A stretch of 62,753 bases of DNA, taken from IMG/VR virus record IMGVR_UViG_3300031758_000014; one strand, 5' to 3'. Origin of the DNA: an uncultured virus (IMG/VR IMGVR_UViG_3300031758_000014). Taxonomy: Duplodnaviria > Heunggongvirae > Uroviricota > Caudoviricetes. Below the pieces are notes generated by a model. It was not told where the DNA came from. It searched no databases and saw only the letters and a program-made list of their open reading frames with translations. Shown here piece after piece: positions 2,885-39,630 of the stretch (its first letter is position 1; every line of letters starts with the position of its first letter). The position numbers and the translations under genes were made by a program.

Positions 2885-3337
2885 TTATTTTCTGTTCTGT
2901 TGTAAAAACTTTAAGTAATTTTCATTTCTTATGTTTTTCATTTTAACTATTAGTTTGTCCCACTCTAACATTAAAGATTCTGGTATCTCTATACCTTTCA
3001 TCTCAAACTCTTTAAGTATTTCTTCTTTAGTGAAACTACATTCAACAATACCTTCAGTCCATTGTTTAACCCATAAACCCCAACCTTTTTTACCACTGAT
3101 TACAGCTTTAAGTATATTAGGGTGTTTTGTTCTTGGATTTACAAACTTAAATCTACCGTTGTCATATTCTCTAAACGCAAACTTAGCTTCAGAACCGTTT
3201 TTGACGTAATCTACTTCGAAATTAGAACCACAAAAAGTTATTAAACCAGTTCTATAAATTTTGAAATAAAACTCAAACATTTTATTAAAATTATCTGAGT
3301 ATTTTTTTAATTTTCTATCGTTTCTAGAACCTACCAC
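2885..3337 (-). CDS. hypothetical protein
   Basis: ORF track. Confidence 0.6.
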   Translation of the reverse strand: MVGSRNDRKLKKYSDNFNKMFEFYFKIYRTGLITFCGSNFEVDYVKNGSEAKFAFREYDNGRFKFVNPRTKHPNILKAVISGKKGWGLWVKQWTEGIVECSFTKEEILKEFEMKGIEIPESLMLEWDKLIVKMKNIRNENYLKFLQQNRK

Positions 3338-3407
3338 TTCCAGTGATTTTTTTATTCTAGTTAGCTTATCGCCTCCAACTCTTTCATATAATTTATTTTA
3401 TTTTTAG

Positions 3408-3481
3408 TGGAGAATACCGGAATCGAACCGGTCACCTCTTGTCTGCCAGACAAGCGCTCTAGCCAAATGAGCTAATTCCCC
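3408..3481 (-). tRNA. tRNA-Ala(GGC)
   Basis: Cloverleaf GGGGAAT...CT GGC AG...ATTCTCCA with G3:U70. Confidence 0.92.
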
Positions 3482-3487
3482 AATTAA

Positions 3488-3627
3488 GTAGAGAAATTTA
3501 GATGAGTGTGTTTTTACTATGCTATCCATTACACCACCACCGCATTATTTTTATTTGAGCGGTGACCAGGACTCGAACCTGGATCAGTCGTTTGAAATAC
3601 GAAGTAACACTCGTTCTTTACTACTAC
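3488..3627 (-). ncRNA. Circularly permuted tRNA-Glu(TTC)-like RNA closed by a conserved stem module (YrlA-like architecture)
   Basis: Order on the RNA: module 5' strand, anticodon loop, T arm CCAGG TTCGAGT CCTGG, acceptor 3' strand TCACCGC, AT-rich loop, acceptor 5' strand GCGGTGG, D arm, module 3' strand. Confidence 0.8.
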
Positions 3628-3631
3628 TTTG

Positions 3632-3703
3632 AGCGAGAAATGAGATTCGAACTCACGACACTCTGGTTGGTAACCAGATACTCTACCACTGAGCTATTCT
3701 CGC
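3632..3703 (-). tRNA. tRNA-Gly(ACC), unusual A34 anticodon
   Basis: GCGAGAA..TCTGG TT ACC AA CCAGA..TTCTCGC T; Gly-type acceptor and U73. Confidence 0.85.
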
Positions 3704-3714
3704 AATTACAAAAG

Positions 3715-3861
3715 TTAAACTTTCAACTTTTGTTTTCTTTTTCTTTTGATCATCTTCATTATGAATTTGAATACATGATCATTTGCATCCTTTCTTAATT
3801 TTACCTTTGATGATTCGAAACTTCCCGTTAATACTTCTTTACTTTTTTTCATTTGTTTCAT
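3715..3861 (-). CDS. small basic hypothetical protein (48 aa, MKQMKKSKEV...)
   Basis: Manually translated ORF between tRNAs. Confidence 0.4.
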   Translation of the reverse strand: MKQMKKSKEVLTGSFESSKVKLRKDANDHVFKFIMKMIKRKRKQKLKV

Positions 3862-3877
3862 ATTTTTATTTTTTGTG

Positions 3878-3951
3878 TGGAGCTAGGGGTGTACGATACC
3901 CCATCTCCGCATTGCAAGTGCGGTATGTTAGCCAGTTGTCACCATAGCCCC
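3878..3951 (-). tRNA. tRNA-Ala(TGC), atypical T loop
   Basis: GGGGCTA acceptor with G3:U70; CT TGC AA loop; T loop ATCGTAC. Confidence 0.85.
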
Positions 3952-3996
3952 AAATTGAAGGAAGACTAACCTTCGTTGTAACTTAAAGTCTTTTTG

Positions 3997-4084
3997 AGCA
4001 GGTAGTGGGATTCGAACCCACGATGTGAACCTTATCTGACCGGATTGGAAATCCGGAGCCATCGACCAACTAGGCGACACCTGC
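3997..4084 (-). tRNA. tRNA-Gly(TCC) with long variable region
   Basis: CCGGA TT TCC AA TCCGG; about 18-nt variable region; canonical T arm; U73. Confidence 0.8.
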
Positions 4085-4621
4085 ATGTATTTCTCTATGA
4101 CAATTAGAACAAACTAAAATACATTTATCTAATTCATTTTTTATTCTATCCCAAGAAAGATTATATTTCCCGGAGATTGTAAAATCTTTTTCACTCGGAT
4201 TGGTATGATGAAAATCAAGTGCTTGAATACATTTATTATACCCACATAAAATACATTCACCACCTTTATACTCAACCGATTTTATTTTTAACATTGTTCT
4301 TCTTTTCAATCTATAAATTTTAGAATTTTTTTTAGCTGCATCACTATCAACCCTCTTAATATCAGCATGTTTAATTACTGTTGTTTCTGAAATTCCAAAA
4401 TATATAGATGTTTCTTTTTTTGTGTGTGTTTTATAATATTCTTTTAATTGTAAAATTTCATCTTCATTTAACTCTTTATATTTTTTTAATCCAATATCAC
4501 TTAGTCCATTTTCCTTACACCATTTTGATACTATTGATTTTGAACATTTTAATATTTCACTTATTTTATTTAAACTGAATCCATTTTTTCTCAATTCAAT
4601 TATTTTACTTTCCAAACTCAT
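4070..4621 (-). CDS. HTH-HNH homing-endonuclease-like protein
   Basis: CxxC, LDFHH, CILVCSNCHREIH; stop codon overlaps the tRNA 5' end. Confidence 0.85.
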   Translation of the reverse strand: MSLESKIIELRKNGFSLNKISEILKCSKSIVSKWCKENGLSDIGLKKYKELNEDEILQLKEYYKTHTKKETSIYFGISETTVIKHADIKRVDSDAAKKNSKIYRLKRRTMLKIKSVEYKGGECILCGYNKCIQALDFHHTNPSEKDFTISGKYNLSWDRIKNELDKCILVCSNCHREIHAGVA

Positions 4622-4677
4622 ATACTTTCCAATTCTTTCTTATATATATTAAAGTATATGGGTTCTCACCCAAAATG

Positions 4678-4758
4678 TCGATAGGGTGGGATTCGAACCC
4701 ACGTTTTCAACTTCCCGCTACGGATATTCAATGTATAAGATTGAACCGGTACCTATCG
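4678..4758 (-). tRNA. tRNA-Ile(TAT)-like RNA lacking a D arm, long variable region
   Basis: CGATAGG/CCTATCG acceptor; TTCAAT CT TAT AC ATTGAA; GTGGG TTCGAAT CCCAC. Confidence 0.65.
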
Positions 4759-4828
4759 TTTTAATTCTTTTCGTGAATCACTCGGTGGATTTTGATAGAC
4801 CAGTAGACCACTTACTACCTGTTTCTTA

Positions 4829-5143
4829 TTATAACTTTATAAATGTTTCACTCTTAATTGATTTACTAATCCATCTAGCTAATTCAGAACCTCTAATTTC
4901 AGCTTCAAATCTAGTTGTGCCTAAATCTTCTGATAAAATAACAGTTTCTACTTCATACATAGATAAACCACTTTCATCATTAAATGTTGGTCCTTCTTGT
5001 GTTGTTGATATTGGGAATTGGTATAACTCACCAAATACTTCAACATTGTAATATAAATTACCAGCGATATAGTGACTGAATCTTGCCATTGTTTTAGACT
5101 TCATTAAGTCTTTTTTTACTTCTACTTCATTAAACATAATCAT
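4829..5143 (-). CDS. hypothetical protein
   Basis: ORF track. Confidence 0.65.
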   Translation of the reverse strand: MIMFNEVEVKKDLMKSKTMARFSHYIAGNLYYNVEVFGELYQFPISTTQEGPTFNDESGLSMYEVETVILSEDLGTTRFEAEIRGSELARWISKSIKSETFIKL

Positions 5144-5157
5144 TTATTTTTTATTTG

Positions 5158-5240
5158 TTGGAAGGGAGGGATTCGAACCCCCGTACCCGTTAGGGAGCGG
5201 ATTTACAGTCCGCCGCATTTAACCACTCTGCCACCTTCCA
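5158..5240 (-). tRNA. tRNA-Tyr(GTA)
   Basis: GCGGA CT GTA AA TCCGC with Tyr-type variable arm. Confidence 0.92.
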
Positions 5241-5254
5241 GTTTTTATTTCATT

Positions 5255-5881
5255 TTATTTTTTTAATCTTCCCAATTCCCATCCTTCAGGGATTATCTCA
5301 TTTTTTTTTATTTTTTTATTCTCATACCCATTTGTTATCCAACAAGTTCCAAATTGAGAATTATTCTCACCTTTTTGAATTTCACTCAACTTTTCACTTA
5401 TCTTAATTTTAGATTCTTGTGAATGTTTTTTACCACTGAAACCTTTACTATTTAAATTATTTTTATTACCTTTTAGTTTATTTGATATTTTTTTTATCCA
5501 ATTATCTTTAAAATCAATATCTTTCCTTTTTTCATTTAGTCTATCATTACCAGCTTTAGAACATTTCATTTGATGTTCCTCATCTTTAAATCCACCACTA
5601 CCACCAACTCTCAAATTCATACAAAGAGTTTCATTTATTAGATTTGATGTAATAAGATCAATTTCCGCTTTTATCAGTTCATCTCTATTATCATAAAATT
5701 CCAATATTTCAATTTTAAAATTCTCTTTACCATACTTTCTTATTGAGTATCTTAATTTTTTACCAGATCCCAAATATCCATCGTTTAAATTATTTGTACT
5801 GTGCATACCATAATAATAATTATGATTTATCAAATTTGTCGTTTTATACAAATAGTGATAACATTTAATTTTTCTTGGCAT
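5255..5881 (-). CDS. Seg-like GIY-YIG homing endonuclease with NUMOD3-type motif
   Basis: YLYKTTNLIN..YYGMHST..DGYLGSG; KKHSQESKIKISE. Confidence 0.8.
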   Translation of the reverse strand: MPRKIKCYHYLYKTTNLINHNYYYGMHSTNNLNDGYLGSGKKLRYSIRKYGKENFKIEILEFYDNRDELIKAEIDLITSNLINETLCMNLRVGGSGGFKDEEHQMKCSKAGNDRLNEKRKDIDFKDNWIKKISNKLKGNKNNLNSKGFSGKKHSQESKIKISEKLSEIQKGENNSQFGTCWITNGYENKKIKKNEIIPEGWELGRLKK

Positions 5882-5937
5882 TTTTAAATTTTATTTTTAT
5901 TTATATATTAAATATAATAGTACAAAAATGTCTAAAG

Positions 5938-6005
5938 TGGGAGACGTGAGACTCGAACTCACCTGCTAGGATTTTACAGATCCGGCCGTCACCATAACCC
6001 CTCCC
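5938..6005 (-). tRNA. degenerate tRNA-Tyr(GTA)-like gene with shortened D arm
   Basis: GGAT CT GTA AA ATCC; GTGAG TTCGAGT CTCAC; GGGAG/CTCCC acceptor. Confidence 0.6.
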
Positions 6006-6016
6006 AAGTATAAACT

Positions 6017-6048
6017 AAAAAACCCAACTGATTTTGTCAGTTGGGTTT
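6017..6048 (-). terminator. attenuator terminator of tRNA cluster A
   Basis: AAACCCAACTGA/TCAGTTGGGTTT hairpin plus U-run. Confidence 0.88.
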
Positions 6049-6073
6049 CATAATATTTTTTTATTAAAATATA

Positions 6074-6169
6074 TTATAATACACTTTTACTGACAATAGG
6101 TAATCTATACCCCGCCTCATAAGCCTCGTAGCCTCTCGCTTCTATTGATATGTTAACTATTGTTCTCAT
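6074..6169 (-). CDS. leader peptide A: MRTIVNISIEARGYEAYEAGYRLPIVSKSVL
   Basis: Manual translation; E/A/G/Y/I-rich core matches downstream tRNAs; TTGTCAGT antiterminator. Confidence 0.85.
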   Translation of the reverse strand: MRTIVNISIEARGYEAYEAGYRLPIVSKSVL

Positions 6170-6203
6170 TGTATATTTTTTTAATTGTTTTTATTTTACT
6201 CTA

Positions 6204-6234
6204 CAAAGATACGGAAGTTTTTTAAAACACCAAA
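6204..6234 (-). promoter_or_regulatory. Bacteroidota-type sigma-A promoter of cluster A
   Basis: TTTG-N19-TAtcTTTG on the minus strand. Confidence 0.8.
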
Positions 6235-6254
6235 TCTTTTTATATTTTTTTTAG

Positions 6255-6328
6255 TAGCGGGAGCTGGATTCGAACCAACGACCTCAAGGTTATGAGCCTT
6301 GCGAGCTACCAGACTGCTCTATCCCGCG
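6255..6328 (-). tRNA. initiator-type tRNA-Met(CAT)
   Basis: CGCGGGA start with C1 mismatch, A11:U24, CT CAT AA loop. Confidence 0.88.
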
Positions 6329-6432
6329 ATGTAAGTATATATATTAAAAAGTTTTTCTTCCTTTTTAATTTTTATGATATTTTTTTGAAAAAGTTTAAAA
6401 AAACTTTATATTTTTTTATAAATATATACAAT

Positions 6433-14904: not shown

Positions 14905-14938
14905 ATAAATTATAAAGCTATTTATTTAAAAAGTTTAG

Positions 14939-15027
14939 TCTAAGTGATGGGACTCGAACCCACATAGAACTTTTACATTCATTCCTGATCCCAAATCAGG
15001 TCGGCGACCAATTGCCTACACACCTAG
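14939..15027 (-). tRNA. tRNA-Pro(TGG) with long variable region
   Basis: CCTGA TT TGG GA TCAGG; about 20-nt variable region. Confidence 0.8.
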
Positions 15028-15365: not shown

Positions 15366-16010
15366 TTAATTTAATTCATTTTCATATATTTTTATCCATT
15401 TTCTTATAGCATTATCACTAACACCATATTTTCTACCAGTTGAAGAGTATCCATTTTTTATAATTTCTGCCTTTAAAACTTCATAACTCGGTCTTTCCAC
15501 TTTTCTACGACTTAATCTAACTTTACTTTTCTTTTTTATATCTTTTTTTCTACTAATATTTTTACCACAATGAGTTTCTAGTCCAGCATTACAGTTAGGA
15601 CAAACTATTCTCAAATTTTCTAATCTATTATCATTATATACACCATTTATATGGTCTAAAATTAGAGAGATTTTCATACCATTCCAATTTTCATCCTGAC
15701 CACAAATCTCACATACTCTATTTTTAAGACCATCTTCATATAATCTATTTTTTAAGTGTGTTCTTGAATAGGTTGAATTTTCCACCAAAACTAAGGATAG
15801 ATCAATTTTACTATTTCTCATCTTATTTACCATAACCTCCCATTTCTGAGTGAAGTGAGAAGTGTCAATGTTGTATATTTCTAAATACTTTTTTATTGTC
15901 TTAAAATTACCACCAGCACTTCTTAGTCCAATGTTTTCAAGAGCTTCTTTTAAGCTATTAGATTTTTTTACTATTTCTTCTAATAAATCTTTTTCCCATT
16001 TTATTTTCAT
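15366..16010 (-). CDS. HNH endonuclease with C-terminal HTH
   Basis: CEICG..LDHING..DNRLENLRIVCPNC; GVSDNAIRKW. Confidence 0.85.
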   Translation of the reverse strand: MKIKWEKDLLEEIVKKSNSLKEALENIGLRSAGGNFKTIKKYLEIYNIDTSHFTQKWEVMVNKMRNSKIDLSLVLVENSTYSRTHLKNRLYEDGLKNRVCEICGQDENWNGMKISLILDHINGVYNDNRLENLRIVCPNCNAGLETHCGKNISRKKDIKKKSKVRLSRRKVERPSYEVLKAEIIKNGYSSTGRKYGVSDNAIRKWIKIYENELN

Positions 16011-16086: not shown

Positions 16087-16120
16087 AAAAAAACCCAGTT
16101 AATCTTTGACTAACCGGGTT
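16087..16120 (-). terminator. attenuator terminator of tRNA cluster B
   Basis: AACCCGGUUAGUC/GAUUAACUGGGUU hairpin (G:U pairs form only on the minus strand) plus U-run. Confidence 0.88.
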
Positions 16121-16142
16121 CATATCATTTAAAGTTTTTTAT

Positions 16143-16244
16143 TTAACTTTTAGACAATAGAGCGTTAGTCCCAAATACTTTAGGTTGATCCTGATCTTGG
16201 ATTTGCGGGTTAACTACTGCGATATTTACGTTAAAAGTTTTCAT
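16143..16244 (-). CDS. leader peptide B: MKTFNVNIAVVNPQIQDQDQPKVFGTNALLSKS
   Basis: Manual translation; PQIQDQDQP core matches Gln/Pro/Asp/Pro tRNAs; GACTAAC antiterminator. Confidence 0.88.
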   Translation of the reverse strand: MKTFNVNIAVVNPQIQDQDQPKVFGTNALLSKS

Positions 16245-16295
16245 AATAATAATGTATATATAAAGTTTTTATTCTCTCTTTTTAATTTTATGATA

Positions 16296-16327
16296 CAAAG
16301 ATATAAAAGTTTTTAATATCTACCAAA
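16296..16327 (-). promoter_or_regulatory. Bacteroidota-type sigma-A promoter of cluster B
   Basis: TTTG-N20-TAtcTTTG. Confidence 0.8.
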
Positions 16328-20006: not shown

Positions 20007-20076
20007 TATTATACATTTTAATTTTTTTTATATATTAAAATGTGTAGTCTTCCTTTACCAATGACTTTTAAGTTCG

Positions 20077-21307: not shown

Positions 21308-21335
21308 TATATATAAAAAAGTAATGTGTCTGTTG

Positions 21336-21662: not shown

Positions 21663-21670
21663 ATTTTTTG

Positions 21671-21755
21671 TCGGTAGGGTGGGATTTGAACCCACGTTAT
21701 ACTTTCGTATCCAGTGTATCAGACTGGTCCCTGAAAACCGCTCGGGTACCTACCG
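21671..21755 (-). tRNA. tRNA-Ile(GAT) with long variable arm
   Basis: CCAGT CT GAT AC ACTGG; ATAC GAAA GTAT variable hairpin. Confidence 0.8.
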
Positions 21756-22457: not shown

Positions 22458-22469
22458 TTTATATTTTTG

Positions 22470-22557
22470 AGGGCCCGGTAGGATTCGAACCTACTTTATT
22501 TCAATTTTTCATACAGTGATTAACAGTCACCAGCTAAAACCATTAAGCTACTGACCC
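22470..22557 (-). tRNA. tRNA-Asn(GTT) with long variable region
   Basis: GGTGA CT GTT AA TCACT; about 20-nt A-rich variable region. Confidence 0.72.
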
Positions 22558-22568
22558 GTATGTAAAAT

Positions 22569-22602
22569 AAAAAACCCTCAGATTTTTTGTCTGAGGGTTT
22601 TT
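22569..22602 (-). terminator. attenuator terminator of tRNA cluster C
   Basis: AAAAACCCTCAGA/TCTGAGGGTTTTT hairpin. Confidence 0.88.
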
Positions 22603-22625
22603 CAAGTTTTTTATTCTATAAAAAT

Positions 22626-22742
22626 TTATAGAGTAGTTAAGTCATGAAAACCCTCACTATGTCTAATACATAACGTATTTAACACCATCACTGTATTCAG
22701 TGTGTTATTTACATTAATCATATTTAAGTTAATAGTTCTCAT
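22626..22742 (-). CDS. leader peptide C: MRTINLNMINVNNTLNTVMVLNTLCIRHSEGFHDLTTL
   Basis: Manual translation; first 27 residues use only N/L/M/I/V/T/C/R, matching the cluster; TGAGGGTTTT antiterminator. Confidence 0.85.
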   Translation of the reverse strand: MRTINLNMINVNNTLNTVMVLNTLCIRHSEGFHDLTTL

Positions 22743-22788
22743 TGTTTTTATATTTTAATTGTTTTTATTCTGTTTTAATTTTACTTTA

Positions 22789-22922
22789 CAAAGATACAAA
22801 AGTTTTTTAAATATCCAAAAAGTTTTTTTAATTTTTTATTATATATTAAAAAACTTTTCTCCCTTTTGTGTTTTTGTTATATTTATACTACAAATTTAGT
22901 AAAAAGTTTTAAATATACCAAA
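22789..22922 (-). promoter_or_regulatory. tandem Bacteroidota-type promoters of cluster C
   Basis: TTTG-N19-TAtcTTTG (22789-22819) and TTTG-N20-TAaaTTTG (22891-22922), with a TAATATATA motif between. Confidence 0.78.
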
Positions 22923-24105: not shown

Positions 24106-24138
24106 AAAAAAACCCTCAGATTATTAATCCGAGGGTTT
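24106..24138 (-). terminator. attenuator terminator of tRNA cluster D
   Basis: AAACCCUCGGAUUA/UAAUCUGAGGGUUU hairpin plus U-run. Confidence 0.88.
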
Positions 24139-24163
24139 ATTATATAATATTATTATTACCTAA

Positions 24164-24238
24164 TTATAAACACAATCGGATTACATGTCCACTACTCGAG
24201 CGACTTGACGAAACTAATATGTTTAAAATTGTTCTCAT
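24164..24238 (-). CDS. leader peptide D: MRTILNILVSSSRSSSGHVIRLCL
   Basis: Manual translation; SSSRSSS matches Arg(ACG) plus four Ser tRNAs; TAATCCGA antiterminator. Confidence 0.9.
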   Translation of the reverse strand: MRTILNILVSSSRSSSGHVIRLCL

Positions 24239-24526: not shown

Positions 24527-24657
24527 TGGTAGGGAGATGGGACTCGAACCCATGACCACGCGGTTAACAGCCGAAGTAACTCTTCTAATCAACACTCTTT
24601 CGAGGTAAAGTTATAGAAAAGTAAAGTACGTGCTCTACCAACTGAGCTACTCCCTAC
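24527..24657 (-). tRNA. tRNA-Asn(GTT) interrupted by a 55-nt structured insertion between positions 28 and 29
   Basis: Removing 24574-24628 restores CGCGG CT GTT AA CCGCG; the insert is the conserved module closed by CTC-GAAA-GAG. Confidence 0.8.
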
Positions 24658-25492: not shown

Positions 25493-25521
25493 AAAAAAAC
25501 CCAAGTCTTTTGAACTTGGGT
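25493..25521 (-). terminator. attenuator terminator of tRNA cluster E
   Basis: ACCCAAGU/ACUUGGGU hairpin plus U-run. Confidence 0.86.
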
Positions 25522-25543
25522 CTGTTTGTAGTTATATTTTATT

Positions 25544-25663
25544 TTATAAAGTCGTTAAGTCTTCAAAAAATAAACACAATACTTTTCCAGTACCAAGTTC
25601 TGATTTATTGCTAAACCATTTGCTTGATTTACTAAAATGTTTATGTTTATTAATTGTTCTCAT
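25544..25663 (-). CDS. leader peptide E: MRTINKHKHFSKSSKWFSNKSELGTGKVLCLFFEDLTTL
   Basis: Manual translation; K/H/F/W/N core matches the cluster; GAACTTGG antiterminator. Confidence 0.88.
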   Translation of the reverse strand: MRTINKHKHFSKSSKWFSNKSELGTGKVLCLFFEDLTTL

Positions 25664-25711
25664 TATTTCTATATATTAAAAGTTTTTTCTCTCTTTGTTA
25701 ATTTTATACTA

Positions 25712-25833
25712 CAAATTTAATAAAAGTTTTTATATCTACCAAATTATTTGTAAAAATTATTGAAAATTGTATCTAAATCGTTTCCTTTTTCAATAACAAT
25801 ACAAATATAAGGAGATTATTTTAATCTACCAAA
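25712..25833 (-). promoter_or_regulatory. tandem Bacteroidota-type promoters of cluster E
   Basis: TTTG-N20-TAaaTTTG (25712-25743) and TTTG-N20-TAtaTTTG (25802-25833). Confidence 0.78.
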
Positions 25834-39524: not shown

Positions 39525-39630
39525 TAAAAAAAGTGGTATAAATTATACCACTTTTTTTATTAAAAACATTAATATGAGTAGATAATAAAAAAAGTGGTAT
39601 AAATTATACCACTTTTTTTATTAAAAACAT
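39517..39630. repeat. 53-bp direct repeat containing a terminator hairpin (39517-39569, 39578-39630)
   Basis: gtagataataaaaaaagtggtataaattataccactttttttattaaaaacat occurs twice. Confidence 0.9.

What the first reader, a model, noticed from the sequence alone, without database searches (positions are those of the whole stretch)
6017..6234. Attenuator A: EARGYEAYEAGY leader for Tyr/Ile/Gly/Ala/Glu tRNAs
Leader 6169-6074 samples both Tyr codons (TAC, TAT), both Glu (GAA, GAG), Ala GCG/GCT and Gly GGC/GGG. These GC-ending codons are striking in such an AT-rich genome, as expected if several isoacceptors are being monitored. Leader TTGTCAGT (6096-6089) pairs with terminator ACTGACAA (6041-6034). 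The initiator tRNA (6255) lies upstream, outside this control.
Basis: partly seen in the sequence, partly recalled or inferred. Interest (0 to 1): 0.85.

Follow-up and report, generated by a model that had tools for sequence, protein, structure and literature searches.

The report
Codon-sensing attenuator for phage tRNA genes
A giant phage places each of its tRNA gene clusters behind a tiny test gene rich in the very codons those tRNAs read, followed by a stop signal for transcription, apparently so that slow ribosomes switch on more tRNA production.

Summary
On the minus strand lie a Bacteroidetes-type promoter motif (6234-6202), a 31-codon ORF (6169-6074), a strong intrinsic terminator (6049-6019, T run to 6017) and, 11 nt later, the first of a tRNA series. 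The leader holds 3 Tyr, 3 Glu, 3 Ala, 2 Gly and 4 Ile codons. Its codons sample 6 of 6 anticodons called downstream, using codons that are rare in this genome (GCG, GGC, GGG).

The unit is not unique. The window has five such units, one before every tRNA cluster. I found 44 in nine related megaphage records, each leader rich in the amino acids of its own cluster. Two small leaders with 7 Gln codons each sit before Gln tRNAs. In 39 units, 174 of 196 operon anticodons are sampled by the cognate leader, against 345 of 732 for non-cognate pairs. The match is frame-specific in 39 of 39.

A leader segment complementary to the terminator's 5' arm covaries with that arm. It lies where a ribosome stalled on the cognate codons leaves it free. 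For this unit the 8-bp pairing is the weakest part of the case. No expression data exist. I found no published tRNA-gene attenuator.

The parts
6254..6328 (-). tRNA-Met (CAT), upstream of and outside the attenuator. A second promoter-like motif lies just before it at 6353-6338.
   Evidence: ARAGORN; Rfam 61.3 bits; motif
6202..6234 (-). Promoter-like motif P1 (TTTG, about 19 nt, TAnnTTTG) that would start the leader transcript near 6198
   Evidence: 6 matches in the window, all on the minus strand, 0.13 expected. Five stand before leader ORFs of units A, F, B and D; the sixth is a second tandem copy. That the motif equals the Bacteroidetes consensus is recalled, not tested.
6074..6169 (-). Leader ORF of 31 codons preceded by an A-rich untranslated stretch
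6107..6160 (-). Regulatory codon block: Ile ATA x3, Glu x3, Ala x3, Gly x2, Tyr x3; the last Tyr codon is 6109-6107
   Evidence: 6 of 6 operon anticodons sampled
6089..6096 (-). 5' strand of the proposed antiterminator, inside the ORF. It starts 10 nt after the last Tyr codon and ends 12 nt before the stop codon.
6050..6077 (-). A/T-rich hairpin between the stop codon and the terminator. The antiterminator helix encloses it in the nascent fold.
6017..6049 (-). Intrinsic terminator: 13-pair stem (6049-6037 with 6031-6019), then a T run to 6017. 6041-6034 is the 3' strand of the antiterminator.
5937..6005 (-). First gene after the terminator: a tRNA-like element with anticodon GTA, a shortened D arm and a short variable region
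   Evidence: ARAGORN permissive only; Rfam below threshold; 18 consensus pairs, 2 with compensatory change, in 3 genomes
5255..5881 (-). GIY-YIG/NUMOD3 homing-endonuclease-like ORF inside the operon
   Evidence: Pfam (NUMOD3 above cut-off; GIY-YIG domains below cut-off); blastn to Seg-like endonucleases
5157..5240 (-). Canonical tRNA-Tyr (GTA)
4678..4758 (-). tRNA with anticodon TAT (Ile AUA type) and a long variable region
   Evidence: Rfam 39.5 bits; homologous to the first tRNA after the Ile/Gly/Ala terminator of G002
4070..4621 (-). ORF with a helix-turn-helix domain; inserted-gene candidate inside the operon
   Evidence: Pfam (HTH_23 only)
3407..4084 (-). tRNA-Gly(TCC) 4084-3996, tRNA-Ala(TGC) 3951-3877, tRNA-Gly(ACC) 3703-3631, Glu(TTC)-like element 3627-3557, tRNA-Ala(GGC) 3481-3407
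16087..16327 (-). Sister unit F: P1 16327-16294, leader ORF 16244-16143 (2 Pro, 4 Gln, 2 Asp), terminator 16118-16094 plus T run. An HNH ORF (16010-15366) follows, then tRNA Gln, Pro, Asp, Pro (15362-14938).
22569..22922 (-). Sister unit B: two P1 motifs, leader ORF 22742-22626, terminator 22597-22575. Then tRNA Asn, Asn, Ile, Arg, Ile, Thr, Leu, Cys, Met, Val, Val, Leu, Leu.
   Evidence: 30 of 37 residues cognate
24106..24238 (-). Sister unit C: leader ORF 24238-24164 (6 Ser, 3 Arg), terminator 24135-24113. Then tRNA Arg(ACG) and a series of Ser tRNAs.
25493..25833 (-). Sister unit D: two P1 motifs, leader ORF 25663-25544 (6 Lys, 2 His, 4 Phe, 1 Trp, 2 Asn), terminator 25520-25500. Then tRNA Lys, His, Phe, Lys, Trp, Trp, Lys, His, Phe, Lys and an Asn-like tRNA.

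Best explanation
The locus is a ribosome-mediated (leader-peptide) transcription attenuator, and what it controls is a tRNA operon of a huge A+T-rich phage.

Transcription starts at the promoter motif at 6234-6202. A ribosome translates the 31-codon leader close behind the polymerase. If Tyr, Glu, Ala, Gly and Ile (AUA) codons are decoded quickly, the ribosome runs on over 6096-6089. The 13-bp terminator then forms and transcription ends at the T run, 11 nt before the first tRNA-like gene.

If any of these codons is decoded slowly because its charged tRNA is scarce, the ribosome stalls within 6160-6107. The segment 6096-6089 stays free and pairs with 6041-6034 as soon as that stretch is made. 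The terminator cannot close, and the polymerase reads on into the operon: the Tyr-like element, tRNA-Tyr, the Ile(TAT) tRNA, Gly, Ala, Gly, the Glu-like element and Ala. This would give negative feedback of each tRNA group on its own synthesis.

Shown here: the anatomy, its recurrence, the codon-anticodon correspondence, frame specificity, covariation of the alternative pairing, and the geometry in silico. Inferred: translation of the ORF, transcription-translation coupling, stalling, and regulated read-through.
For: 1. Anatomy. ORF, terminator and promoter motif are in place. The 185-nt leader folds better than all 200 shuffles (-38.3 kcal/mol, z -4.8).

2. Obligatory read-through. The first tRNA(-like) gene starts 11 nt after the T run here, and 3-16 nt after it in 33 of 39 units. 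That leaves no room for a promoter. Neither promoter motif occurs between 6202 and 3407.

3. Recurrence. Five units in the window cover every tRNA cluster. The relaxed finder listed 40 candidates, 1 of them a false positive, in window, LR745206, LR756502 and G002-G007. Five more units came later.

4. Amino-acid match. With 14 units, the summed share of leader residues that have a tRNA in their own operon was 5.96. Permuted operons gave 3.23 +/- 0.50, and 0 of 20,000 permutations reached the observed value. The window alone (4 units) ranked 1 of 24. Unit A alone has 11 of 30 residues cognate against 21% expected (P 0.03).

5. Anticodon match. 174 of 196 operon anticodons are sampled by the cognate leader, against 345 of 732 for non-cognate leader/operon pairs of the same genome. 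Unit A samples 6 of 6.

6. Frame. 335 of 601 triplets are decodable by own-operon tRNAs in the ORF frame, against 82 of 562 and 63 of 562 in the other frames. The ORF frame is best in 39 of 39 units.

7. Antiterminator. Mean duplex energy between a leader and its own terminator 5' arm is -14.2 kcal/mol (n 39). It is -11.1 for arms of the same type (n 236) and -9.1 +/- 2.6 for other types (n 1246). In 26 of 39 units at most 5% of other-type arms pair as well. Arms and leader segments change together among orthologues.

8. Geometry. In masked nascent folds of unit A, 12 pairs to the 5' arm persist with the A site at codons 1-20 and 11 at the last Tyr codon. There are none at the stop codon. Pooled over 40 candidates, 330 of 523 residues are cognate in the zone where a stalled ribosome leaves the antiterminator free, against 120 of 531 beyond it.

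9. Co-evolution. Three records with one merged Tyr/Glu/Ile/Gly/Ala operon (window, G006, G007) have 5, 6 and 6 Ala+Gly codons in this leader. Five records with a separate Ile/Gly/Ala unit have 2, 1, 2, 4 and 4.

10. Extreme case. Two small leaders with 7 Gln codons each, 7 in a row in one of them, stand directly before runs of tRNA-Gln genes.
Against: - No transcript, ribosome or read-through data exist. No RNA run holding the sequence was listed.
- For unit A itself the antiterminator is the weakest of the family by specificity: 8 A/T-rich pairs at -10.7 kcal/mol. That is matched by 18% of codon shuffles and by 42% of other-type arms.
- With the A site at codons 27-29, another upstream segment gives 8-9 pairs to the arm in the model, so masking is not clean.
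- Without any ribosome the nascent fold still forms the antiterminator in 10 of 14 units. Default termination, as in trp, is therefore not predicted. The 1:2-type helix in the full-length fold is not robust.
- The masking model failed to show an early antiterminator in 3 of the 39 real units.
- The window's Glu gene is a non-canonical element, and the first Tyr gene is tRNA-like only.
- About 2.7 kb and three ORFs lie between the terminator and the last tRNA, so unrecognised internal promoters cannot be excluded.
- Synonymous changes are only slightly enriched at cognate positions: 244 of 829 differing codons against 201 of 902.
- Orthologous units are not independent, so pooled P values overstate the support.
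- No unit was found in Lak-B1.
Confidence: 0.8

Rival explanations
1. The short ORF is an ordinary small-protein gene with its own constitutive, somewhat leaky terminator. The tRNAs are made by unregulated read-through or from unrecognised promoters, and the composition match has no regulatory meaning.
For: The N-terminal four or five residues, and in some units the C-terminal residues, are conserved among paralogous leaders, as in a protein family. Synonymous enrichment is weak. The antiterminator of unit A is not significant by energy.
Against: This does not explain why leader composition follows the downstream anticodons: 0 of 20,000 permutations and 174/196 against 345/732. It does not explain why composition changes when operons merge or split, or the leader with 7 consecutive Gln codons before Gln tRNAs. 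Nor does it explain why a segment complementary to the terminator arm covaries with it.
Confidence: 0.06
2. The leader senses tRNAs directly as RNA, without a ribosome (T-box-like). Codon-like triplets would bind the anticodons of uncharged or surplus tRNAs and shift the terminator/antiterminator balance.
For: The regulated products are themselves tRNAs, and the leader displays their codons. An alternative pairing with the terminator exists.
Against: No T-box or other riboswitch match appears at E <= 10 in 5880-6420 or at gathering threshold in the window. All 39 units keep an ATG, an open frame and a stop 22-36 nt before the hairpin. Cognate triplets are strongly frame-specific, 56% against 15% and 11%, which a ribosome-free reader would not need.
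Confidence: 0.05
3. Translation of the leader matters, but through another output. Ribosome position might control processing or stability of the precursor (RNase P/Z or RNase E access), or fast translation rather than stalling might promote read-through.
For: The first gene after the terminator in this unit is a tRNA-like element that could serve as a processing signal. In long leaders the antiterminator segment is free again behind a ribosome that has moved on (units D and B).
Against: The stop codon lies 22-36 nt before the hairpin, too far for a terminating ribosome to melt the hairpin. The cognate block ends at the last position from which a stalled ribosome leaves the antiterminator free, as the classical polarity predicts.
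Confidence: 0.07

Closest known systems
Leader-peptide attenuators of amino-acid biosynthetic operons in enterobacteria (trpL, hisL, pheL, leuL); named from my own knowledge, with general descriptions seen in the abstracts of PMC1183508 and PMC3082878 (search listings)
   Same: A short ORF with a run of cognate codons, an intrinsic terminator, an alternative pairing that overlaps the terminator's 5' arm, and use of rare codons as sensors. The leaders with 7 Gln codons in LR745206 and LR756502 resemble the His run of hisL.
   Different: The regulated genes are tRNAs, not enzymes, so the sensed molecule is the product itself. There is no sequence or Rfam relationship. No robust 1:2 anti-antiterminator is predicted. 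The carrier is a phage with Bacteroidetes-type promoter motifs.
Multivalent attenuators (thrL sensing Thr and Ile; ilvL sensing Ile, Leu and Val); recalled
   Same: One leader mixes codons of several amino acids, so shortage of any one of them relieves termination.
   Different: Here up to about ten amino acids and individual isoacceptors are sampled. The mix mirrors the tRNA content of the operon and changes when operons merge or split.
pheM-pheST attenuator of phenylalanyl-tRNA synthetase; recalled
   Same: Leader-peptide attenuation applied to a component of the translation machinery rather than to biosynthesis.
   Different: It controls a protein-coding operon for a single amino acid, not tRNA genes.
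T-box riboswitches; recalled
   Same: Terminator/antiterminator control keyed to the state of a specific tRNA.
   Different: A T-box binds the tRNA directly without translation and has conserved elements. None is detected here, and the signal here is frame-specific.
tRNA arrays of phages as replacements for host tRNAs depleted or cleaved during infection (PMC10264068, abstract only; huge-phage tRNA inventories in PMC7162821, passages read)
   Same: A large phage-borne tRNA complement: 19 amino acids by standard calls plus a Glu-like element in this window.
   Different: PMC7162821, the one of these two papers that I searched, describes content, not demand-driven control: 'attenuat' and 'leader' occur 0 times in its main text. 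PMC10264068 I saw only as an abstract.

Membership tests
Ribosome-mediated (leader-peptide) transcription attenuator | Short translatable ORF in the 5' leader of the regulated transcript | tested here: met
   ATG-to-TAA ORF of 31 codons at 6169-6074, downstream of a promoter motif. An ORF is kept in 39 of 39 related units. Translation itself was not shown.
Ribosome-mediated (leader-peptide) transcription attenuator | Regulatory codons cognate to what the operon supplies | tested here: met
   6 of 6 operon anticodons are sampled. 11 of 30 residues are cognate against 21% expected. Family-wide: 174/196 against 345/732, 0 of 20,000 permutations, and frame-specific in 39 of 39.
Ribosome-mediated (leader-peptide) transcription attenuator | Intrinsic terminator between the leader ORF and the first regulated gene | tested here: met
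   13-pair stem plus T run at 6049-6017. The first tRNA-like gene starts 11 nt later.
Ribosome-mediated (leader-peptide) transcription attenuator | Alternative antiterminator pairing that excludes the terminator | tested here: inconclusive
   For this unit there are 8 perfect pairs, reached by 2.1% of codon shuffles for length. By energy they are matched by 18% of shuffles and by 42% of other-type arms. The family as a whole gives a clear cognate advantage and covariation.
Ribosome-mediated (leader-peptide) transcription attenuator | Geometry: a ribosome stalled on regulatory codons leaves the antiterminator free, and one that has passed them covers it | tested here: met
   Masked nascent folds give 12 pairs up to codon 20, 11 at the last Tyr codon and 0 at the stop codon. 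Ten nt separate the last Tyr codon from the first paired base. This is a model only.
Ribosome-mediated (leader-peptide) transcription attenuator | Anti-antiterminator (1:2) structure that gives termination when the leader is not translated | tested here: inconclusive
   A helix between 6164-6158 and 6100-6094 appears in the full-length fold. The ribosome-free nascent fold prefers the antiterminator.
Ribosome-mediated (leader-peptide) transcription attenuator | Read-through rises when the cognate charged tRNA is limiting | not testable with these tools
   No RNA run holding the sequence was listed.
Rfam leader families (Thr, Leu, Trp, His, Phe leaders) by homology | Match to a covariance model | tested here: not met
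   No such family appears among matches up to E 10 in 5880-6420, nor at gathering threshold over the window. The units work like these families but are not members.
T-box riboswitch | Match to the T-box model (specifier loop and T-box sequence) | tested here: not met
   No T-box match.

The most novel reading that the evidence does not exclude
A clade of freshwater megaphages runs a near-complete private tRNA supply as a set of demand-driven circuits. Five or more codon-sensing leader peptides each measure ribosome speed on the codons of one tRNA group, down to single isoacceptors. Each opens its own terminator only when that group runs short. Shortage could arise when host tRNAs are degraded, cleaved by anticodon nucleases or mismatched to phage codon usage. 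This would be the first case of leader-peptide attenuation governing non-coding RNA genes and of direct feedback control of tRNA pools. The leaders would be re-written by evolution whenever tRNA genes move between operons.
Probability: 0.55. Interest if true: 0.93.

Novelty: new variant of a known kind. Interest (0 to 1): 0.88.

Why it matters
Phage tRNA genes have been debated for decades as codon-usage patches or as replacements for host tRNAs lost in infection. How their expression is set is little studied.

These units suggest that a phage can read the translational state of the infected cell codon by codon and answer with the matching tRNAs. That makes the debate testable: which depletion opens which attenuator. 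It also extends the textbook attenuation mechanism to RNA genes.

The units form a natural series of sensors for nearly all amino acids and many isoacceptors. The way leader composition follows operon content shows how quickly such sensors can be retuned.

Tried and rejected
- **Rfam.** Gathering scan of the whole window and permissive scans of 5880-6420 and 3300-5300: only tRNAs, no leader, T-box or riboswitch family.
- **Sigma-70-type promoter** predicted inside the ORF (6096-6068, 10 of 12): not conserved in LR745206 by my reading of the alignment. It would also still face the terminator.
- **RNA evidence.** No RNA holder was listed, and read laying was not used.
- **Whole genome and earlier findings.** Neither is available.
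- **Synonymous against non-synonymous changes** as proof of translation: only a weak difference.
- **A 1:2 anti-antiterminator:** not robust.
- **Search for the same architecture in Prevotella phage Lak-B1.** 0 units in 28 kb holding 28 strict tRNA calls. My finder requires a canonical hairpin with a T run and table-11 ORFs, so this is a weak negative.
- **Strict finder.** It missed unit F of the window because of G-U pairs in the hairpin and an inserted HNH gene. The promoter motif led to it. The relaxed finder gave 1 false positive among 40 (a 53-aa ORF in G003), which I dropped but not.
- **Literature.** Nine full-text searches found no report of attenuators before tRNA genes. Subscription papers and supplements were not seen.

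Full report
**What the window is.** The window is 25-36% G+C. ARAGORN finds 33 tRNA genes, all on the minus strand, and Rfam finds 34 tRNA-type matches and nothing else. The closest named records are two uncultured phage genomes of 634,780 and 642,428 bp, LR745206.1 and LR756502.1. Passages of PMC7162821 say that the genomes above 634 kb in that study belong to the 'Mahaphage' clade and are predicted to replicate in Bacteroidetes. That these two records are among them is my inference from their lengths.

**The observation.** On the minus strand lie, in order:
- tRNA-Met at 6328-6254;
- a promoter-like motif at 6234-6202;
- an A-rich stretch;
- an ORF of 31 codons at 6169-6074;
- an A/T hairpin;
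- a terminator hairpin of 13 pairs at 6049-6019 with a T run to 6017;
- a tRNA-like element at 6005-5937, starting 11 nt after the T run.

The complementarity is reached by 104 of 5000 codon shuffles. As an energy (-10.7 kcal/mol) it is not exceptional. The G/C-ending Ala and Gly codons are rare in this genome: GCG 5.8%, GGC 2.6% and GGG 3.6% of their families.

**The unit recurs in the window.** Printing the DNA upstream of the other tRNA clusters showed the same unit again. A search for the shared ORF start found four such ORFs and no others, each followed by a terminator and a tRNA. A promoter motif (TTTG, about 19 nt, TAnnTTTG, which I recall as the Bacteroidetes consensus) occurs 6 times against 0.13 expected, always on the minus strand. 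One copy at 16327-16294 led to a fifth unit that the first finder had missed. An HNH endonuclease gene (Pfam) sits between its terminator and the tRNAs. Every tRNA cluster of the window thus lies behind a leader, except tRNA-Met, which has a different promoter-like motif directly before it.

The leaders and what follows them:

| Unit | Leader ORF | Notable leader content | tRNAs that follow |
|---|---|---|---|
| D | 25663-25544 | 6 Lys, 2 His, 4 Phe, 1 Trp | Lys, His, Phe, Trp |
| C | 24238-24164 | 6 Ser, 3 Arg | Arg(ACG) and Ser |
| B | 22742-22626 | 30 of 37 residues from its set | Asn, Ile, Arg, Thr, Leu, Cys, Met, Val |
| F | 16244-16143 | 4 Gln, 2 Pro, 2 Asp | Gln, Pro, Asp |
| A | 6169-6074 | 3 Tyr, 3 Glu, 3 Ala, 2 Gly, 4 Ile | listed in the next paragraph |

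Unit A is the finding. It precedes the Tyr-like element, tRNA-Tyr, a tRNA with anticodon TAT, Gly(TCC), Ala(TGC), Gly(ACC), a Glu-like element and Ala(GGC).

**Relatives.** LR745206 aligns with 5936-6392 at 71% identity and has the same layout. Pattern scans of IMG/VR and fetches around tRNA clusters gave further records. A relaxed finder listed 40 candidates, one of them a false positive, in nine records. By operon content they comprise 8 Tyr/Glu, 5 Ile/Gly/Ala, 8 Arg/Ser, 9 Lys/His/Phe/Trp, 5 Asn/Ile/Leu/Val/Thr and 4 Gln/Pro/Asp units. Five more came from further regions of the two large records. These include two very short leaders with 7 Gln codons each, seven in a row in one (two CAG, five CAA). 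They stand directly before three or four tRNA-Gln genes with anticodons TTG and CTG. No unit was found in two tRNA regions of Prevotella phage Lak-B1.

**Leader content tracks the tRNAs.**
- With 14 units, the summed fraction of leader residues that have a tRNA in their own operon is 5.96. Permuting operons within genomes gives 3.23 +/- 0.50, and 0 of 20,000 permutations reach the observed value. For the window alone (four units at that stage) the true assignment ranks first of 24.
- At codon level, in 39 units, 174 of 196 distinct operon anticodons are sampled by at least one leader codon. The figure is 345 of 732 for non-cognate leader/operon pairs of the same genome. Unit A samples 6 of 6.
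- The signal is confined to the reading frame: 335 of 601 triplets against 82 of 562 and 63 of 562, with the ORF frame best in 39 of 39 units.
- Orthologues are not independent, so these figures describe a consistent pattern rather than 39 separate trials.

**Co-evolution of this particular leader.** In five records the Tyr/Glu tRNAs and the Ile/Gly/Ala tRNAs lie behind two separate attenuators. There the first leader has mainly Tyr and Glu, with Ala+Gly counts of 2, 1, 2, 4 and 4. In the window, G006 and G007 the two groups form one operon without a second attenuator, and the single leader carries 5, 6 and 6 Ala+Gly codons. G006 and G007 are close to each other, and the sample is small.

**Mechanism.**
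- *Read-through is required.* The tRNAs begin 3-16 nt after the T run in 33 of 39 units, so they can only be made by read-through.
- *The alternative pairing.* In every unit a segment in the 3' part of the ORF is complementary to the 5' arm of the terminator. Mean duplex energy is -14.2 kcal/mol for a unit's own arm, -11.1 for arms of the same type and -9.1 +/- 2.6 for other types. In 26 of 39 units at most 5% of other-type arms do as well. Where the arm differs between orthologues, the leader segment differs in the complementary way.
- *Ribosome position.* I folded the nascent RNA up to the terminator loop while masking a ribosome footprint. In unit A the antiterminator (12 pairs to the arm region) is present with the A site at any codon up to the 20th. 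It has 11 pairs at the last Tyr codon, then decays, and has none at the stop codon.
- *Pooled pattern.* Over 40 candidates, 330 of 523 residues are cognate in the zone where a stalled ribosome leaves the antiterminator free, against 120 of 531 beyond it. The stop codon lies 22-36 nt before the hairpin.
- *Reading.* This is the classical polarity: stalling on cognate codons gives read-through.

**Weak points.**
- Nothing has been measured. No RNA run was listed.
- The pairing of unit A is the least specific of the family.
- Positions 27-29 give 8-9 pairs through another upstream segment.
- The ribosome-free nascent fold forms the antiterminator in 10 of 14 units, so termination would need active translation.
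- The masking model fails in 3 of the 39 real units.
- The Glu and first Tyr genes of this operon are non-canonical.
- Three ORFs lie inside the operon.

**Comparison with known systems.** The unit works like the leader-peptide attenuators of trp, his, phe, leu, thr and ilv, and of pheST (recalled). It matches no Rfam leader or T-box model, so it is an analogue, not a member by descent. What is new is the target, tRNA genes, and with it the logic of direct feedback on tRNA supply with isoacceptor-level sampling. Nine full-text searches found no such report. The huge-phage paper does not use the words 'attenuat' or 'leader' in its main text. Subscription literature and supplements were not covered.

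**Verdict.** It is a new variant of a known kind of control, of high interest, and awaits a direct test of read-through.

Noticed in passing
window 5937-6005 (-); L006:30188-30257; L007:10847-10916: A tRNA-like element with anticodon GTA, a 3-pair D arm and a short variable region, unlike the class II tRNA-Tyr at 5240-5157. It is conserved in three genomes with 2 compensatory pairs among 18. G006 and G007 have a canonical tRNA-Tyr at this place. By my reading of the printed DNA, G003 has a more degenerate tRNA-like element there and LR756502 only an acceptor-stem-like remnant.
   Followed up: partly
window 3557-3627 (-): The only Glu(TTC) candidate in the window lacks a D arm and has a 5-pair acceptor-like stem. 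ARAGORN calls it only at a permissive threshold and Rfam does not find it, while relatives have canonical tRNA-Glu genes.
   Followed up: partly
window 24528-24656 (-): A tRNA (Rfam 43.6 bits) carries an insertion of about 55 nt. ARAGORN reads it as a TTA suppressor with an intron or, permissively, as Asn(GTT). By eye the insertion splits the 5' strand of the anticodon stem.
   Followed up: no
window 3996-4084, 14938-15027, 21670-21755, 22469-22557 (-): tRNAs for Gly, Pro, Ile and Asn are 86-90 nt long, with extra sequence in the variable region, which is unusual for these amino acids.
   Followed up: no
window 3631-3703 (-): tRNA-Gly with anticodon ACC. The relatives carry GCC at the corresponding place.
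   Followed up: no
window 5255-5881, 15366-16010 (-); also ORFs near 22314-21760 and 21281-20597: Homing-endonuclease-like genes (GIY-YIG/NUMOD3, HNH) are inserted inside the tRNA operons. One sits between an attenuator's terminator and its first tRNA. The last two ORFs were identified by eye only.
   Followed up: partly
window 6338-6353, 25670-25685, 22840-22855, 21308-21323, 20029-20044 (-) and 9 further sites: A second promoter-like motif, an A/T-rich 16-mer, occurs 14 times with up to 2 mismatches against 1.5 expected. One copy lies directly before tRNA-Met and others before leader ORFs and endonuclease genes. It may be a phage-specific promoter.
   Followed up: partly
L046:3138-3188 (LR745206) and L048:3437-3490 (LR756502): Internal Gln-only attenuators have no promoter motif of their own and lie directly after a tRNA inside the Pro/Asp/Gln operon. 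The leader would therefore be translated from a tRNA-mRNA hybrid transcript. The window has no counterpart.
   Followed up: partly
window 39533-39551 and 39594-39612 (both strands): The same terminator-like hairpin occurs twice, 61 nt apart, after a 49-codon ORF for a very basic peptide. This looks like a short tandem duplication.
   Followed up: no
L043, L044 (Prevotella phage Lak-B1, MK250020.1): The two main tRNA regions, with 28 strict tRNA calls, show no ORF-terminator-tRNA unit with my finder. The tRNAs there are spaced by hundreds of bases.
   Followed up: partly
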